Translations under genes and position numbers: made by a program
From: a virus
Taxonomy: Duplodnaviria > Caudoviricetes
Direction: 5' to 3' (one strand)
Virus record (IMG/VR): IMGVR_UViG_3300046779_001841
Location: 192,001 to 256,000 of that record
DNA length: 64,000 bases
In this document: in pieces, positions 38,478 to 52,367 of the stretch
How positions within the stretch are numbered: the stretch's first letter is position 1
Layout of the letters: each line of letters opens with the position of its first letter
The notes under the pieces: model-generated
The model's input: only the letters and a program-made list of their open reading frames with translations
Told to the model about the DNA's origin: nothing
The model's database searches: none

Positions 38478-38550
38478 GGACTCGTAGCTCAATGGTTTGA
38501 GCAATGCTCTCATAAAGCAGAGGTTCTGGGTTCAATCCCCAGCGGGTCCA
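38478..38550 (+). tRNA. tRNA with CAT anticodon, probably Ile2 (lysidine-type); elongator Met not excluded
   Basis: Acceptor GGACTCG/CGGGTCC, D arm GCTC/GAGC, anticodon loop CTCATAA, T arm CTGGG-TTCAATC-CCCAG, discriminator A, no encoded CCA. G1-C72 excludes initiator; A3-U70 and C4-G69 resemble Ile2 tRNAs. Confidence 0.9.
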
Positions 38551-38565
38551 CTTTCTTAAAAAAGG

Positions 38566-38763
38566 ATGGTTATTATGGCAATGATGAAAACAGGCACACC
38601 TGCAACACAAGTAAATACTGAAACTATTCGTGGTTATCAAGATGGACTACAAGGCAATTCCAATCCACCAGAAGATAATGTACAACTTCAATTCTATAAT
38701 CAAGGATATGAACTTGGTCAAAAAGTTAAAAATGGTCAAGCACAAGCACCTATTTGGGCTTAG
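38566..38763 (+). CDS. Hypothetical protein (65 aa)
   Basis: AAGGA Shine-Dalgarno; GYQDG..YNQGYELG pattern. Confidence 0.65.
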   Translation: MVIMAMMKTGTPATQVNTETIRGYQDGLQGNSNPPEDNVQLQFYNQGYELGQKVKNGQAQAPIWA

Positions 38764-38795
38764 TTCAATAGTTTATTTATATTAATATATTAAAT

Positions 38796-38880
38796 GTAGT
38801 CACCTCCTGCAATTAGGTGTTCCTTGTTCGTGCGCACGAAACGATCCTACAAAAATTCGTGCAATTATCTTCTTTTCTTT
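38796..38880. ncRNA. Candidate structured non-coding element 1
   Basis: GC-rich island in an AT-rich spacer: outer GTAG/CTAC, hairpin CACCT/AGGTG, palindrome TTCGTGCGCACGAA (38827-38840), then AAAAA-TTCGTGC-AATTATCTT and a T-run. Confidence 0.4.
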
Positions 38881-38917: not shown

Positions 38918-39316
38918 ATGAAATATCTTATCTTTTTCTCCTTGTTGCTTAATCATCTTTCTCTCTTTGCTCAAGAAGATAACCAACAATTATTATTGCC
39001 AGAATATCAACTTGTTAAGACTGCAGAAACAATTAAAGAATCTGCTAAAGTAGATCTAAGCACAATGGCAATTTTGCCTTTCTTAAATGATAATGTTAAG
39101 AAACTTGAATCGCTTTTAAAAGAAAAAGACAATCTTTTAAGAGAAAAAGATGCAGAGATATTAAAACTTATTCGTGCAAATACTCAACTTTCTCTTGAGA
39201 AAAAAGAATGTGAAGTAGATTATAAACATTGTAAAAATAGCACTTATCTACAATTAGGTATCACTGCACTTTCTACTGTTTCATCTGTATATGCAGGTGT
39301 TAAATGCACTCAATAA
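38918..39316 (+). CDS. Hypothetical exported coiled-coil protein
   Basis: Signal-peptide-like MKYLIFFSLLLNHLSLFA, coiled coil, hydrophobic C-terminus. Confidence 0.65.
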   Translation: MKYLIFFSLLLNHLSLFAQEDNQQLLLPEYQLVKTAETIKESAKVDLSTMAILPFLNDNVKKLESLLKEKDNLLREKDAEILKLIRANTQLSLEKKECEVDYKHCKNSTYLQLGITALSTVSSVYAGVKCTQ

Positions 39317-40847: not shown

Positions 40848-41843
40848 TTAATAAAATATATGTGCTTGGCTTTCTGCATAAGCCTGATTACTAATTTCCA
40901 CCCATTTCGCTTTAAATTGTAATTCTCTTATTGTTCTTGCTCCACTATAACTCAATCCACTTCTTATATTGATTGCTATCTCATCCAATATATCATCTAC
41001 AGATCCTTTATATCCTACTTGATGACTTACACCTTCTACTGATCTCACTGTTCCTCTCCATTGTGATTGTGCTTCTTTACTTGCCATTCCTACATACTTC
41101 TTATATTTATTTCCATGTTCATCTGTATGCACTTTACCTGGTGCTTCATCTGTACCTGCTAAATATGAACCTAGCATTACAAAATTCGCACCACCTGCTA
41201 GACACTTAACCATATCACCTGTTGTCTTAATCCCACCATCTGCAATAATTGGCATCTCATAAGTTGAACTTGCACAATCAAATACACTCGCAAGTGTTGG
41301 AATACCATGTCCTGTTTGTATTCTTGTTGTACAAATAGAACCACCACCTATTCCTACACGAACTGCATTTGCACCAGCATCTATTAAAAATTCATAACCA
41401 TCTTTAGTCGCTACATTTCCAGCGATTACATATACTTTACCATAACCATATCTTCTTCTGATCTCTTTTAAAGCATCTCCTACAACTTTTGTATGTCCAT
41501 GTGCAACATCCAAACAAAAATCTGTAATTCCCATTTCTACAAATTTATCCAAATCATTGATCTCATTACAACCTATCGCAACACATGAACTTCTTGATCT
41601 GGATGAAAGTGAAATTCTTTCTTCTATGGTATTATATCTATGAATAACACCATAACCACCTTTTTTATTCATTGCCAAAGCCATTTCATCTTCTGTTACT
41701 GTTGTCATTGGTGATGACATAACAGGTAAAGATAAAGAACGATCACCTAGTTTAGAAGATAAATCTATTTCATCTCTGGATGCTATATCTGAATATTGTG
41801 GTGAAATAAGATAGTCATTGAAAGTTTTTAAAAGCATTTGCAT
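40848..41843 (-). CDS. guaB: IMP dehydrogenase / GMP reductase family protein without CBS domains
   Basis: [84 protein letters not shown]. Confidence 0.85.
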
Positions 41844-48179: not shown

Positions 48180-51100
48180 ATGGCTAAGAGTAGAAAAATA
48201 GCTATGTCTGATGAACAAGAAGAAGTCTTAGATAAAAAGACTTTACTCGATCTAACAAGATTTCTTTTAATTTTAAAGAAGTGTGTTGATCTTCAGTTGC
48301 CTGAAAACATTATAAATGATGGTTTAGATCTATATCGTTTAAATATTTCTAAGATTCAAGAAATAGGCGATATGCTCTTTGATGAGATCGTAGCTAATAG
48401 TTCTCGTCTGAATCCTTTTTATACCAAATATCGTTTAGCTAAAAAAACCTTTGATGTAGAATCCTTAAATAACAGGATTCCTTTAATAGAAGGTTGTTTT
48501 AAGTATTTGCATTTAAATCAAGTTTCTTTAATAGAATTTGCAGAAAATGAACCAGTATTGGTATTGAACCTTAAAGATATTATTCAAGGTATTTTAGAGA
48601 ATAATTTGAATGAGAGTTTAAAGCTACTATTGAACATTCCATCATTCTTATTTTTAAAGTCTGGTGCAAGATCACCACAAAATTGGATTGAGGCTTTAAT
48701 TAAAGCAAATATTACAGGTGCAAGTAAGACACAAAAAGTCGATGCAATCTTGGCAATCAATCAAAGCTATGTAAATCTTGCTAAAGATATTAGAACTCTT
48801 GATACACAGATTAGAAGTTTCACTCCAAATTCAAGAGAATTTATAGAGAAACAAGAGCAAAGACAAGAGTTATTAACAAAACTTATAAATGAAGTTCAAG
48901 ACAAAGAAGGTAATGATGCTAAGAATATCTTGTCAAATTTGACAAGTATCATTCATAGTAGTGAAACACATCAAACTGTAGTCGGTGCTAGATTAAAATT
49001 AACACCTGAACAAGAAAATGCCATGATGGTAGATGGTAAATCAATTATCGCGGCTGGTGCAGGTTCTGGTAAAACTCGTGTCTTGGCTGGTCGTGTTGCT
49101 TGGCTGATTCAAGAAAAAGGTGTTCCTGCATCAAGTATCATGGCAACATCCTTTACAGCCAATTCTGCAACAGAATTAAAAGAAAGAATTGAAAAACCAG
49201 AATTTGCAGGTGATGGTGCAATTCAAGGTAAAGGTTTTGGTACTTCACACTCAATCGCATTTAGTATCTTGCAACAATTTAGTCCAGTATCAAATGTAGA
49301 TTTCAATTTAGATAGTAAGTTGATGATTTTAGCTTTAAAGCAAGTACAAATGTCACCTACAAGTGGAGTACCTTTAGGCAAGATGTCTAATAAGCCAATC
49401 TTTAATCAATATACACAAAACGATATTGATAACTATATTAAGATGGTCAATACCTTTATGGACTATGCAAATTATTTTCTTTCTCAATCTAGTACACCAC
49501 CAGATGCAAAAGAAGATTTGAAAAAAGATATTGTTGTTTTGAACCAAATTATTCAAAACAAGTTATTGCCTTATGATCTTTCTAAAGATCAAAAAGACCA
49601 TTTAAATAATATGATTGCATCACCTAGAGGCAAACAAGTTTTTAATAGGTTAATAGGTGAATATAAACTTACTCATTTAGAGAGATTACAAAAAATAGGT
49701 TCAGAAGAAGAGAACCAACCATATAGAGATTTACAGCGTGAATCTGATAAAAGACAAAAAGGCAAATCTCCAAAAGATTCACCTTATAACACTGAACCTG
49801 CGAATATGTGGTTTAATTTAGGATTAAATCAAGAAGGAATAGAAGCACAAGCTAGTCTATTAAAAAATGCTGGTTTATTTGATAAGGCAGATAATTTACA
49901 AGATGATTTTGAAGAATTTTTAAAAAAGGCACATGGCGAATCCAAGTTCTTCCAAAAGCAAGTTTCTAAATGTTATAACAATGTGATGTCTGTAAAACAA
50001 CTTAAAGATTCTTTAAAGCCTAATTTCTTGAATAATGCTTTAGTTGCAGTTTATGGTGCTTATTTGTGGCTAAAAGAAAATGATCTTACTTTTGCTAATA
50101 CTATCAGTGGTGATGATATGTTAATTAAGGCAATAGGTTTGATGTTAGAAAAGCCCAGTGTTTTAAGTGCATTACAAACTCAATATAAACATATCATGGT
50201 AGATGAAGCACAAGACTTAAATAAATCACAACATATCTTCTTTGGATTGATCGCAGGGACAATCAATCCTGGTAATTTATTACCATATACAGATGGTAGA
50301 CCAATGAGAGCAAAATCTTTTGTTTTGATTGGTGATGATAAACAAGCGATTTATGAATTTAGAGGTGCTACACCACAAACATTTATTGAGAAGTCTGATT
50401 TATTACAAGGTGATTTTAAGACTGCTATTATTCCTACAAACTTTAGAAGTGGAAATAGTATTGTAGATTCAGCTAATAAATTGATTGCATATAATGATCA
50501 AATTCCTATGACTTGTGTATCTGTACCATCCAAAGGATTGGGAACAATCTATACAGAAAAAACACCAGATCCATCATTTACTGCACCTGCTATTCATTTG
50601 ATGGCTGAGATTAAAACACATATTGGATTAGGTGGTAAAATAGAAGATTATGGTGTGGCAACAAGAAGTAAAAAACAAGCATTCCCATTCTTATTAGAAG
50701 CATTAAAAGAAAAGATACCATTTAGATCACAAATTAATCCTTTATCTAAAGAAAACTTTCAAGCTATTTTTAGATGGCTTGAATTTATCAGTCTTCCAGA
50801 TAGTGATGTTTCTAAATTAAATAGTTTGATTTTAGAACTATATAAGGGCGGTACTGTTTTCTATTTAGGTGAAAAGAACTTTACTGAACCTTTAAAAGAA
50901 TATCTACAAGCTAATAGAAATGCCAATCTATTAACAAATATGCCACTTCATTTATTCCCACAAACATCAACTTCTTTTGTGAAGAGTAGTGTTGAGAAAT
51001 ATTTGAATGTTTTAGTATCTGCAAGACAAATTCAAGGTAGTGCGACTGATTGTCTTGTGAAATTATTAAAACTTAAAGATTTAAAGAAACATACTTTTGC

Positions 51101-51662
51101 AGAAGTTTTCTTTCCTATACAAGAAGATGATGGCAAAGAAAAAGATGATGAAGAAGAAGATAAATCAAAAGATTATGAGATCATGTTATCTTTATTAGAT
51201 TTTACAGATAATCCAGCAGTAGTAACTTTAGCAGATGTTATTGTAGAGATTAAAAAATTCACTAAAACTGTAGAAGAAGGTAGAAAAGAAAACAAAGGTA
51301 TGTTGATAGACACTATGCACCAATGGAAAGGTTTAGAGTGTAAATATCTCACCACTATTTTTGCTGATAATTTCCCAAGAATGAAAGGTGATGATATGAC
51401 TGATGAAGAGTATGAAGCAGAATTAGCAAGTGAAAGAAGACTTGCTTATGTTGCTTTAACTCGTGGTCAAGATCAAGTGCGTGTTATATCTAATACTCAA
51501 GTTAAAGTATGGGATAGTACTGTAAAAGATTGGAAAATGAAAAATGTTACACCATCTAGGTTTATTGAAGAGGCTTGTATTCCACAAAAATTTAAAGTAG
51601 AAAAACAATCTTCATTGGAAATTCATGTAGAAGATATATTGCATTTCATGATTAAAAAATAA
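48180..51662 (+). CDS. uvrD: UvrD/REP-family SF1 helicase with long N-terminal extension
   Basis: LTPEQENA, AAGAGSGKT, VDEAQDLN, IGDDKQAIYEFRGA, NFRS, TMHQWKGLE, ERRLAYVALTRG. Confidence 0.9.
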   Translation: MAKSRKIAMSDEQEEVLDKKTLLDLTRFLLILKKCVDLQLPENIINDGLDLYRLNISKIQEIGDMLFDEIVANSSRLNPFYTKYRLAKKTFDVESLNNRIPLIEGCFKYLHLNQVSLIEFAENEPVLVLNLKDIIQGILENNLNESLKLLLNIPSFLFLKSGARSPQNWIEALIKANITGASKTQKVDAILAINQSYVNLAKDIRTLDTQIRSFTPNSREFIEKQEQRQELLTKLINEVQDKEGNDAKNILSNLTSIIHSSETHQTVVGARLKLTPEQENAMMVDGKSIIAAGAGSGKTRVLAGRVAWLIQEKGVPASSIMATSFTANSATELKERIEKPEFAGDGAIQGKGFGTSHSIAFSILQQFSPVSNVDFNLDSKLMILALKQVQMSPTSGVPLGKMSNKPIFNQYTQNDIDNYIKMVNTFMDYANYFLSQSSTPPDAKEDLKKDIVVLNQIIQNKLLPYDLSKDQKDHLNNMIASPRGKQVFNRLIGEYKLTHLERLQKIGSEEENQPYRDLQRESDKRQKGKSPKDSPYNTEPANMWFNLGLNQEGIEAQASLLKNAGLFDKADNLQDDFEEFLKKAHGESKFFQKQVSKCYNNVMSVKQLKDSLKPNFLNNALVAVYGAYLWLKENDLTFANTISGDDMLIKAIGLMLEKPSVLSALQTQYKHIMVDEAQDLNKSQHIFFGLIAGTINPGNLLPYTDGRPMRAKSFVLIGDDKQAIYEFRGATPQTFIEKSDLLQGDFKTAIIPTNFRSGNSIVDSANKLIAYNDQIPMTCVSVPSKGLGTIYTEKTPDPSFTAPAIHLMAEIKTHIGLGGKIEDYGVATRSKKQAFPFLLEALKEKIPFRSQINPLSKENFQAIFRWLEFISLPDSDVSKLNSLILELYKGGTVFYLGEKNFTEPLKEYLQANRNANLLTNMPLHLFPQTSTSFVKSSVEKYLNVLVSARQIQGSATDCLVKLLKLKDLKKHTFAEVFFPIQEDDGKEKDDEEEDKSKDYEIMLSLLDFTDNPAVVTLADVIVEIKKFTKTVEEGRKENKGMLIDTMHQWKGLECKYLTTIFADNFPRMKGDDMTDEEYEAELASERRLAYVALTRGQDQVRVISNTQVKVWDSTVKDWKMKNVTPSRFIEEACIPQKFKVEKQSSLEIHVEDILHFMIKK

Positions 51663-51697
51663 TTGCAAATTTAGAATTTCTGTGTAATGTAATAATC

Positions 51698-51780
51698 GTG
51701 ATTGCTAAAGTGGACTTAGCTTTTTCCACCTGTATGACATAGGCAGGTATCACAAAAACTATGTCAATTATCTTTTTTTT
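51698..51780. ncRNA. Candidate structured non-coding element 2
   Basis: Outer GTGAT/ATCAC, hairpins GCTAA/TTAGC and ACCTG/CAGGT, then AAAAA-CTATGTC-AATTATCTT and a T-run. The tail CTATGTCA is complementary to internal TGACATAG. Confidence 0.45.
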
Positions 51781-51785
51781 ATATA

Positions 51786-51834
51786 TGTTGCAAAGATAGC
51801 TAAACCACAAGTGTTATATATATGTCGATAATGA
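51786..51834 (+). promoter_or_regulatory. Duplicated promoter-like element, copy 1
   Basis: tgttgcaaagatagct-aaaccac-aagtgttatatatatgtc-ga-taatga is near-identical to 53738-53786 and lies ~28 nt before an ATG. Confidence 0.65.
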
Positions 51835-51861
51835 CAAACTCTCAAAAAAGGAAAATGAGAT

Positions 51862-52083
51862 ATGAAAACTTTTACTCACAATGAAATTTTAGCAATGATA
51901 CAGGAAGCATTTCTTAAACCAATGTCTGAGATACTTGAAACAATCACAAAACTTGAAGCAAATGAAGTAAGAGATGAAGTAAGAATTGCTTATCTTTATA
52001 AAGAATACCATTCTAAAAACTCTGAAAGAGAAAAAGCAGTAAAAGCTATGGAAGACTACTATTTTAGAGAAGGAAAAAAATAA
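51862..52083 (+). CDS. Hypothetical protein (73 aa)
   Basis: AAGGA Shine-Dalgarno; downstream of the duplicated promoter. Confidence 0.7.
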   Translation: MKTFTHNEILAMIQEAFLKPMSEILETITKLEANEVRDEVRIAYLYKEYHSKNSEREKAVKAMEDYYFREGKK

Positions 52084-52367
52084 TGACTATCATCTATGAA
52101 ACTACCAATCCAATGTTTGAAACTATCTGTTCAAATATTGAACATTCTCATTCAATAGCTATAGTAACATATATTCAGAATATTGATGGTGGTGTTATTG
52201 TAAAACTTGATGATGTAGAAAGTATCTATGATAAGATAACTATCTTAGAAAAAGATGACAAGTATGATGTTTGTTTTGAATATCATGGTTCAAAGCCACA
52301 TACTGAAATCATAGAAAAAGAAAACTTAGGAATGTATTTAAGAAAAAAGACCACCATGTTTGTTTAG
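52083..52367 (+). CDS. Hypothetical protein (94 aa)
   Basis: TAATG stop/start overlap with the previous gene. Confidence 0.7.
   Translation: MTIIYETTNPMFETICSNIEHSHSIAIVTYIQNIDGGVIVKLDDVESIYDKITILEKDDKYDVCFEYHGSKPHTEIIEKENLGMYLRKKTTMFV

What the first reader, a model, noticed from the sequence alone, without database searches (positions are those of the whole stretch)
38796..38880. Structured intergenic element 1: same architecture as the element at 51698, different sequence
Seen: outer stem, hairpin, 7-nt pyrimidine linker (TTCCTTG), second hairpin, closing stem, then ACAAAAA-N6-CAATTATCTT and a T-run. The element at 51698-51780 has the same order and an identically spaced ACAAAAA-N6-CAATTATCTT tail. 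In both, the segment after AAAAA is complementary to the second hairpin (TTCGTGC/GCACGAA here, CTATGTCA/TGACATAG there). That gives a mutually exclusive terminator-like stem before the U-run. The stems differ in sequence but pair in both copies, which looks like covariation. Inference: an undescribed phage ncRNA or riboswitch-like attenuator family. I could not match it to a known Rfam motif from memory.
Basis: partly seen in the sequence, partly recalled or inferred. Interest (0 to 1): 0.7.

Follow-up and report, generated by a model that had tools for sequence, protein, structure and literature searches.

The report
New pseudoknotted small RNA in jumbo phages
The element is real: it is one of two copies per genome of an undescribed ~70-120-nucleotide phage RNA that folds into a three-armed junction locked by a pseudoknot. 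The fold is kept by compensatory mutations across a small clade of freshwater jumbo phages, and its function is still unknown.

Summary
Confirmed and extended. The window is part of a 316-kb freshwater jumbo phage. E1 (38795-38880) and E2 (51698-51781) share one architecture: P1 (5 bp), one U, P2 hairpin, a pyrimidine-rich J2/3 (UUCC core), P3 hairpin, P1 closing strand, and 4-6 nt of mostly A. A 6-8-nt tail then pairs with the P3 loop, making a pseudoknot.

I found 13 distinct copies in about 8 related phage lineages. The three phage records scanned over all the DNA held each carry exactly one E1-type and one E2-type copy; only G000 is complete. In a hand-curated table of 12 copies about 253 cells are Watson-Crick, 14 are G-U, 3 are U-U and none is A-C. 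Ten of 22 pairs (E2-type) and 8 of 19 pairs (E1-type) change on both sides. Partners slid by 1-3 columns pair in only 24-46% of cells. No Rfam family matches.

Nine of the 11 copies examined have a sigma70-like promoter placed so that transcription would start at P1. Seven of 13 have a canonical terminator 3-18 nt after the pseudoknot. Downstream genes differ between loci, and one E1-type copy faces a convergent gene.

The best reading is a stand-alone small structured RNA. A riboswitch-like switch is only hinted at, in the E1 clade. Expression is untested. The scan's first-stage notes had flagged E2 on this genome, but nothing was found on other DNA.

The parts
38760..38788 (+). Putative sigma70-type promoter of E1: -35 TTAGTT (38760-65), 17-nt spacer, -10 TAATAT (38783-88). 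The predicted start is at or next to P1.
   Evidence: Upstream regions anchored at P1. The same geometry (TTGnnn at -36/-35, TAnnnT ending at -8/-7) is seen in 9 of 11 copies. The orthologue L172 has the better TTGATT-17-TAATAT. The generic scanner did not call it. This is an inference.
38795..38851 (+). E1 three-way junction. P1 is 38795-99 with 38847-51. J1/2 is U at 38800. P2 is 38801-05 with 38815-19 (loop 38806-14). J2/3 is UUCCUU at 38820-25. P3 is 38826-30 with 38842-46 (one U-U; loop 38831-41).
   Evidence: 96.8% of cells paired across 5 E1-type copies, 8 of 19 pairs changed on both sides, slid controls 27-46%.
38852..38862 (+). A-run linker (38852-55) and pseudoknot 3' strand UUCGUGC (38856-62), which pairs with GCACGAA at 38834-40 in the P3 loop.
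   Evidence: The helix is kept in all copies with five different sequences: GCACGAA, GCACAGA, AUAUAGC, GACAUAG and AGUAUAU.
38827..38840 (+). Alternative local hairpin of the E1 clade (UUCGU 38827-31 / ACGAA 38836-40, loop GCGC). It excludes both P3 and the pseudoknot.
   Evidence: 96% of cells paired and 2 of 5 pairs changed on both sides. E1 versus L172 shows the same TC/CT or GA/AG swap in all four interacting segments.
38863..38880 (+). U-rich tract directly after the pseudoknot (7 U in the first 12 nt). It is the likely 3' end or termination zone of E1.
   Evidence: the 6 copies without a hairpin terminator include 4 with 7 or more U in the first 12 nt. The 7 copies with a hairpin terminator have 2-6 U there. 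This is an inference.
51663..51690 (+). Putative sigma70-type promoter of E2: -35 TTGCAA (51663-68, abutting the helicase stop codon), 16-nt spacer, -10 TAATGT (51685-90).
   Evidence: the position and spacing are conserved in all E2-type copies and in L178.
51698..51766 (+). E2, the paralogue. P1 is 51698-702 with 51749-53. P2 is 51704-08 with 51716-20. J2/3 is UUUUUCC at 51721-27. P3 is 51728-33 with 51743-48. The A-run is 51754-58. Tail CUAUGUCA (51759-66) pairs with 51735-42.
   Evidence: 100% of 129 cells paired in 6 E2-type copies, 10 of 22 pairs changed on both sides, slid controls 24-44%.
51767..51781 (+). U-run after the E2 pseudoknot (9 U in the first 12 nt).
   Evidence: It is followed at 51786-51835 by one copy of the genome's roughly 40-copy early-promoter cassette, so the next gene has its own promoter.

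Best explanation
E1 and E2 are the two paralogous genes of a previously undescribed, clade-restricted family of small structured phage RNAs, about 70-85 nt here and 101-119 nt in relatives.

Inferred sequence of events:
1. Host sigma70 RNA polymerase starts at the first base of P1.
2. The RNA folds as it is made into a three-way junction (P1, P2, P3).
3. After a 4-6-nt A-rich linker, the 3' tail pairs with the P3 loop and closes a pseudoknot, giving a compact, probably ring-like fold.
4. Transcription ends either at a canonical hairpin terminator a few nucleotides later (7 of 13 copies) or, as in E1 and E2, at the U-rich tract that directly follows the pseudoknot helix.

The helices and the P2 loop are free to change. 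The nearly constant parts are the single U between P1 and P2, a pyrimidine-rich J2/3 (UUCC in all but one copy) and the A-run. These junction nucleotides are therefore the likely recognition surface for a partner, a protein or possibly a small ligand. The RNA most likely acts as a stable stand-alone molecule rather than as the leader of the next gene.

Shown: the family, the fold, the coding strand and the independence from neighbouring genes. Inferred: the promoter, the 3' end, the intramolecular nature of the tail/loop pairing and any partner.
For: Copies and distribution:
- 13 distinct copies in about 8 related phage lineages were found through synteny.
- The three phage records scanned over all the DNA held each carry exactly one E1-type and one E2-type copy. 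G001 and G002 are estimated 14% and 63% complete, so further copies there are not excluded.
- No further family member turned up in IMG/VR (one extra contig, L282, carries a copy identical to L188's) and none in 185,579 bacterial and archaeal genomes, by two architecture patterns.

Covariation:
- E2-type: 100% of 129 cells paired and 10 of 22 pairs changed on both sides.
- E1-type: 96.8% paired and 8 of 19 pairs changed on both sides.
- Slid controls pair in 24-46% of cells.
- The pseudoknot helix has five different sequences and always pairs.
- 14 G-U pairs and no A-C mismatch place the structure on the + strand.
- P2 loop lengths of 4-10 nt are not multiples of three, which argues against coding.

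One family:
- The E1-type model finds L178, which sits at the helicase position, at 32.9 bits (E = 3e-5).
- It then ranks four E2-type elements as its next hits, in the correct register.
- The E2-type model aligns L178 full length at 11.9 bits.

A separate transcription unit:
- Promoter geometry is conserved.
- Seven of 13 copies have their own hairpin terminator, and the others have U-rich tracts.
- E2 is followed by a separate early-promoter cassette.
- Downstream genes are not homologous between loci.
- In G002, L188 and L282 the E1-type RNA faces a convergent methyltransferase gene yet is 97% identical to E1, while the flanks are 58-59% identical.

Energetics: the nested junction gives -7 to -13 kcal/mol and the tail/loop duplex adds -5 to -10.5. 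The sum is roughly at or below the nested minimum of -9 to -14.
Against: - There is no transcript evidence of any kind.
- The promoters are inferred from conserved hexamers in AT-rich DNA. The generic scanner does not call them, and L186 and L188 lack a good -10.
- Covariation cannot tell an intramolecular pseudoknot from pairing between two molecules.
- Eleven of 12 contexts still have a co-directional gene within about 100 nt, so a leader role is not excluded.
- In L174 no terminator separates the RNA from the next gene.
- The E1 clade keeps an alternative hairpin, which a simple stable RNA does not need.
- No partner or target has been identified.
Confidence: 0.5

Rival explanations
1. A cis-acting riboswitch or attenuator. 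The junction plus pseudoknot is an aptamer. Ligand- or factor-stabilised closure of the tail/P3-loop helix just before the U-tract terminates transcription. The alternative local hairpin (38827-31 / 38836-40 in E1) keeps the tail free and lets polymerase read into the downstream gene 38918-39316.
For: - The layout is promoter, structured leader, U-tract or terminator, Shine-Dalgarno site, gene in 11 of 12 contexts.
- The conserved nucleotides sit in the junction, as in aptamers.
- In the E1 clade both the P3+pseudoknot fold and the competing hairpin are kept. Between E1 and L172 all four interacting segments carry the same dinucleotide swap.
Against: - Downstream genes are unrelated small ORFs with no common function.
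- The competing hairpin is absent or not conserved in E2-type copies (hand check of A7).
- The hairpin terminators look constitutive, and no conserved antiterminator pairing was found. A candidate in L004 and L173 fails in L178.
- The E1-type copy in G002, L188 and L282 has no co-directional downstream gene yet is 97% conserved.
- E2's downstream gene has its own promoter.
- The evidence for the alternative hairpin rests on essentially one informative comparison.
Confidence: 0.23
2. A nuclease-blocking or end-protecting fold analogous to viral exoribonuclease-resistant RNAs. The junction closed by the loop/tail pseudoknot forms a ring that stalls a host 5'-3' or 3'-5' exoribonuclease. This would stabilise a decay product of the upstream mRNA (helicase, or the 65-aa gene) or the downstream message.
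For: - The topology is the same as flavivirus class 1a xrRNA as described in PMC8571300. That has a P1-P2-P3 junction, a long-range pseudoknot of 2-7 bp made by loop L3, a following helix P4, a conserved pyrimidine in J2/3 and two copies per genome.
- No terminator lies between the helicase stop codon and E2, so read-through transcripts would carry the element at their 3' end.
Against: - J3/1 is 0-1 nt and the predicted start is at P1.
- No Rfam xrRNA family matches.
- The host and its nucleases are unknown.
Confidence: 0.08
3. A promoter-proximal RNA that acts in cis on the transcribing polymerase, in the manner of phage HK022 put RNAs, making it read through the terminator that follows.
For: There are two structured copies per genome, each directly behind a promoter and directly in front of a terminator and then genes. 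The comparison with put rests on my own knowledge.
Against: - The put RNAs are two stem-loops without a pseudoknot.
- The copy facing a convergent gene and the copy followed by another promoter make little sense for this role.
- It is untestable here.
Confidence: 0.05
4. Ordinary intrinsic terminators of the upstream genes, or chance similarity between two AT-rich spacers.
For: Both elements end in T-runs after co-directional genes. Folding energy is no better than shuffles.
Against: - The terminator scanner does not call them.
- Relatives carry a separate canonical terminator after the element.
- The three junction helices plus a pseudoknot are kept by compensatory changes in 13 copies.
- The element is more conserved than the flanking coding DNA in the more distant phages.
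Confidence: 0.03

Closest known systems
Flavivirus class 1a exoribonuclease-resistant RNA (xrRNA; PMC8571300)
   Same: About 70 nt. A three-way junction P1-P2-P3. A long-range pseudoknot between loop L3 and the strand just 3' of P1. A hairpin follows. There is a conserved pyrimidine in J2/3, and there are two copies per genome.
   Different: No PK1 or 5'-end threading is possible. There is no sequence or Rfam similarity. The element is in a DNA phage of bacteria, behind its own promoter. Nuclease resistance is untested.
phi29-family packaging RNA (pRNA) (own knowledge)
   Same: A phage-encoded RNA of about 120 nt with its own early promoter and a three-way-junction core. Loop complementarity and helices are kept by covariation with little sequence identity.
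   Different: The pRNA loops pair between molecules to build a ring on the portal of small podoviruses, and the gene sits at the genome end. Here the phage is a 316-kb jumbo phage, there are two paralogues, and there is no link to packaging genes.
H-type pseudoknot riboswitches (preQ1-I, preQ1-II, SAM-II) (own knowledge; Rfam models tested)
   Same: A hairpin whose loop pairs with a 3' tail after an A-rich linker, located behind a promoter.
   Different: Here the closing strand of P1 is inserted between the hairpin and the A-run. There is no match to any Rfam riboswitch model and no coherent set of regulated genes.
Phage immunity and antisense RNAs P1/P7 c4 and P4 CI (Rfam C4, RF01695) (own knowledge)
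   Same: Small structured phage RNAs in which a short segment can pair with two alternative complementary segments. Specificity changes through compensated substitutions.
   Different: No Rfam C4 match. No identified target sites elsewhere. The architecture is different.

Membership tests
Any Rfam 15 family (4227 models, including riboswitches, ribozymes, xrRNA, C4 and tRNA-like) | Covariance-model score at or above the gathering threshold | tested here: not met
   The only hit in the window and in 9 related loci is tRNA. Permissive scans of E1, E2 and L178 give only chance hits far below threshold.
Intrinsic (Rho-independent) terminator | A G+C-rich hairpin with a 3-8-nt loop, followed directly by a U-tract | tested here: not met
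   The scanner lists nothing at E1 or E2. The only helix next to the U-tract is the tail/P3-loop pairing, with about 16-20 nt between its two strands. Relatives have a separate canonical terminator.
Riboswitch | A conserved structured aptamer with covariation | tested here: met
Riboswitch | It lies in the 5' leader of genes with a common function | tested here: not met
   Downstream genes are unrelated. One copy faces a convergent gene. One copy is followed by another promoter.
Riboswitch | Mutually exclusive expression-platform structures | tested here: inconclusive
   The alternative hairpin is kept in the E1 clade but not in E2-type copies. No conserved antiterminator exists for the hairpin terminators.
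Riboswitch | Specific ligand binding | not testable with these tools
   It needs in-line probing or ITC.
Stand-alone bacterial or phage small RNA gene | Its own promoter | tested here: inconclusive
   Conserved -35 and -10 hexamers sit at a fixed distance from P1 in 9 of 11 copies. They are not called by the generic scanner, and there are no start-site data.
Stand-alone bacterial or phage small RNA gene | Its own terminator | tested here: met
   Seven of 13 copies have a canonical hairpin plus T-run 3-18 nt after the pseudoknot. E1 and E2 themselves have only a U-rich tract.
Stand-alone bacterial or phage small RNA gene | A discrete transcript is observed | not testable with these tools
   No RNA run holding the region was listed.
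Flavivirus-type xrRNA | A three-way junction plus an L3/3'-strand pseudoknot (PK2) | tested here: met
   The definition is taken from PMC8571300.
Flavivirus-type xrRNA | PK1: the 5' end pairs into the junction and threads the ring | tested here: not met
   J3/1 is 0-1 nt, the predicted start is at P1, and there is no conserved 5' partner.

The most novel reading that the evidence does not exclude
The fold is a bacterial-virus counterpart of the ring-like junction-plus-pseudoknot RNAs of eukaryotic viruses. Alternatively it is the aptamer of a new riboswitch class whose pseudoknot helix doubles as the terminator stem. Either way it would be a new functional class of phage RNA with a defined tertiary fold, not just another small RNA.
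Probability: 0.15. Interest if true: 0.85.

Novelty: new variant of a known kind. Interest (0 to 1): 0.62.

Why it matters
Very few structured non-coding RNAs are known from jumbo phages. This one has unusually clean comparative support for so few sequences: four helices including a pseudoknot, all kept by compensatory change. It has two paralogues in each of the three records scanned over all the DNA held, and it evolves more slowly than its neighbouring genes in distant relatives.

It is small enough for direct structure determination and for in vitro transcription tests. It offers a tractable case of a pseudoknot placed directly before a U-tract, which may act as a terminator. If it binds a host or phage factor, it could reveal a new RNA-based takeover or anti-defence mechanism.

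Tried and rejected
- Rfam at gathering and permissive thresholds: nothing.
- ARAGORN: only tRNA-Met at 38478-38551. The element is not a tRNA.
- Single-sequence folding: z-scores are not significant.
- BLASTN against 50,697 GenBank phage records: no match.
- Two early pattern scans of IMG/VR (the shared tail, and a P2/J2/3 word) returned only chance matches without the architecture.
- Later architecture patterns found only contigs of the same phage clade in IMG/VR. In bacterial genomes they found nothing or only chance hits.
- Helicase relatives at or below 36% identity lack the element.
- The E2-type models R1 and R2 do not detect E1 itself. The link between the two types comes from R3 and from L178.
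- The second pseudoknot noted for E2 (P2 loop GUGGA with UCCAC) is not conserved in any relative (by eye).
- A U-rich 5' leader pairing with the A-run occurs in L004, L174 and L176 only. It lies upstream of the predicted start, so I rejected it.
- Antiterminator pairing between the P3 5' strand and the terminator 5' arm works in L004 and L173 but not in L178, so I rejected it as a family feature.
- The E1 P2 loop pairing with the helicase stop-codon region shows no covariation, so I rejected it.
- RNA evidence: no RNA holder was listed, and read laying was not run.
- Records behind the ENA, JGI and Logan loci could not be searched whole.

Full report
**Context.** The window is bases 192001-256000 of a 316,221-bp IMG/VR phage record (31% G+C, CheckV 100%). 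E1 lies between a 65-codon ORF (38566-38763) and a 132-codon gene for a protein with an N-terminal signal-like sequence (38918-39316). It sits about 250 nt downstream of a tRNA-Met gene. E2 lies directly after the stop codon of an 1160-residue UvrD-family helicase gene (48180-51662). All these genes are on the + strand.

**Observation.**
- The gapped tail ACAAAAA-N6-CAATTATCTT occurs exactly twice in the whole genome.
- A descriptor that asks only for structure finds exactly E1 and E2 on both strands of the genome. It requires a 5-bp P1, a 5-bp P2, a 3-6-bp P3 with a 7-13-nt loop, an A-run, and a tail of 7 nt or more complementary to the P3 loop.
- The same descriptor finds 0.28 sites per Markov-shuffled genome. 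This test is post hoc.
- Minimum free energies of the nested fold are unremarkable.

**Relatives.** I used the helicase and the 132-residue protein as anchors. This recovered orthologous spacers from related freshwater phage contigs whose helicases are 43-87% identical.

E2-type copies, all directly after the helicase gene:
- L004:4010
- L173:13520
- L202:5020
- L174:7607 (identical in L175, L180 and L203)
- L176:4643 (identical in L205)
- L177:4514
- L204:2306

E1-type copies:
- L172:1896
- L186:2269 (identical in L187)
- L188:1497 (identical in G002 and L282)
- L178:4833, which has E1-like sequence but sits at the helicase position

Further points on distribution:
- A relaxed descriptor run over all the DNA held for G000, G001 and G002 finds one E1-type and one E2-type copy in each, plus only weak G-U-rich false positives. 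G001 and G002 are estimated 14% and 63% complete, so further copies in those phages cannot be excluded.
- Helicase relatives at or below 36% identity have no such element.
- Architecture patterns find no further family member in IMG/VR and none in 185,579 prokaryote genomes.

**Structure.** All copies share the following order:
1. P1, 5 bp (6 possible in several copies).
2. An invariant single U.
3. P2, 4-5 bp, with a variable loop of 4-10 nt.
4. A pyrimidine-rich J2/3 of 5-8 nt, containing UUCC in all but one copy.
5. P3, 5-6 bp, with a loop of 8-11 nt.
6. 0-1 nt, then the closing strand of P1.
7. A 4-6-nt linker, mostly A.
8. A 6-8-nt tail complementary to the P3 loop.

Evidence for this fold:
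- On the model-fitted alignment of six E2-type copies, all 129 cells pair and 10 of 22 pairs show changes on both sides. Partners slid by 1-3 columns pair in only 24-44% of cells.
- On five E1-type copies, 96.8% of cells pair. The exceptions are three U-U cells at one P3 position. Eight of 19 pairs change on both sides, and slid controls pair in 27-46%.
- The tail/loop helix exists in five different sequence versions.
- In my hand-curated table of 12 copies there are about 253 Watson-Crick pairs, 14 G-U pairs and no A-C mismatch. The structure is therefore read on the + strand, as RNA.
- The nested junction is worth -7 to -13 kcal/mol and the tail/loop duplex a further -5 to -10.5.

**One family or two.** Models built from E2-type copies do not find E1.
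- The E1-type model R3 finds L178 at 32.9 bits (E = 3e-5 in 68 kb).
- It then ranks the E2-type elements of L204, L176, L177 and L174 as its next four hits, full length and in the correct register.
- The E2-type model aligns L178 full length at 11.9 bits.
- L178 has E1-like sequence at the E2 position and so bridges the two types. I treat them as paralogues.

**Transcription signals.** Anchoring upstream sequences at P1 shows TTGnnn at -36/-35 and TAnnnT ending at -8/-7 in all E2-type copies, L178, E1 and L172. L186 and L188 lack a good -10.
- This places the predicted start at the first base of P1.
- The generic scanner is uninformative in this AT-rich DNA: it finds 62 sites against 79 expected, and it does not call these promoters.
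- Seven of 13 copies carry a canonical G+C hairpin plus T-run 3-18 nt after the tail, giving RNAs of about 101-119 nt.
- The other six copies have no such hairpin. Four of them, including E1 and E2, have 7-9 U in the 12 nt after the tail. The terminator-bearing copies have 2-6 U there.
- I infer that in E1 and E2 the tail/loop helix plus the U-tract serves as the terminator. This is not shown.

**Independence from neighbours.**
- E2 is followed at 51786-51835 by one copy of the genome's roughly 40-copy early-promoter cassette.
- Relative to L174, L176 and L177, a 73-codon gene plus this cassette has been inserted between E2 and the 94-codon gene 52083-52367. L004, L173 and L178 have unrelated downstream genes.
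- In G002, L188 and L282 a methyltransferase gene on the opposite strand ends right at the E1-type tail. The RNA is nevertheless 97% identical to E1, while the flanks are 58-59% identical.
- These facts argue against a role as the leader of a particular gene and for a self-contained RNA.

**A possible switch in the E1 clade.**
- It is also maintained: 96% of cells pair and 2 of 5 pairs change on both sides.
- Between E1 and L172, the P3 5' strand, the loop segment, the P3 3' strand and the tail all carry the same dinucleotide swap.
- That is what a two-state element would need. However, it rests on essentially one informative comparison, and I estimate it could arise by chance about one time in ten.
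- It is not seen in E2-type copies.

**Evolutionary oddity.** In the closest lineage (G001, L173, L202) both RNAs differ more from the window's copies (66-75% identity) than the flanking coding DNA does (82-87%). In more distant phages they differ less (78-97% against 58-75%). Both paralogues therefore went through a burst of compensated change in one lineage. I have no explanation for this.

**Comparison with known systems.**
- No Rfam family matches.
- The topology equals that of flavivirus class 1a xrRNAs as described in PMC8571300: a junction, an L3/3'-strand pseudoknot, a following hairpin, a J2/3 pyrimidine and two copies. The defining 5'-end pseudoknot cannot form here.
- The phi29 pRNA, H-type pseudoknot riboswitches, HK022 put RNAs and the c4/CI immunity RNAs each share some features. 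These comparisons rest on my own knowledge, and none fits as a family.

**Verdict.** The element is a new, narrowly distributed family of small pseudoknotted phage RNAs.
- Most likely it is a stand-alone unit (confidence about 0.5).
- A cis-acting switch is the main rival (about 0.23).
- Expression, the RNA ends, the partner and the function remain untested. No RNA run holding the region was listed.

Noticed in passing
window 38800-38808: UCACCUCCU in the P2 5' strand and loop of E1 matches 9 of 9 bases of the anti-Shine-Dalgarno 3' end of 16S rRNA (own knowledge). It is kept in L186, is CGCCUCCU in L188, and is lost in L172 and L178. It is probably chance.
   Followed up: partly
window 51786-51835 and about 40 other sites in the genome: A repeated promoter cassette of about 50 bp (GTTGCAAAGrTAGC...AAGTGTTATA...GTCGATAATGAC) directly follows E2. 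Earlier notes of this scan had already described it.
   Followed up: partly
window 51862-52083: A 73-codon gene plus one promoter cassette is inserted here relative to L174, L176 and L177. In those relatives the homologue of 52083-52367 follows the RNA directly.
   Followed up: partly
L188:1574-2473, also G002 and L282: An N6/N4 DNA methyltransferase gene on the opposite strand is inserted between the E1-type RNA and the gene for the 132-residue secreted protein.
   Followed up: no
L004, L172, L173 and L202 compared with the window: Both RNA paralogues of the closest phage lineage are more diverged than the flanking coding DNA. In distant phages they are less diverged. This is a lineage-specific burst of compensated substitutions in both copies.
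   Followed up: partly
window 40848-41843 (-): A gene of the GMP reductase / IMP dehydrogenase family (Pfam PF00478, E = 9e-93). It is conserved next to the 132-residue protein gene in L186 and L188.
   Followed up: no
L176, L177, L204, L004, L173 (terminators after the RNA): The hairpin terminators are homologous to one another (GCARTC ... GATTGC). The CAATTATCTT shared by E1 and E2 may be a remnant of the terminator's 5' arm (GGCAATCTTT).
   Followed up: no
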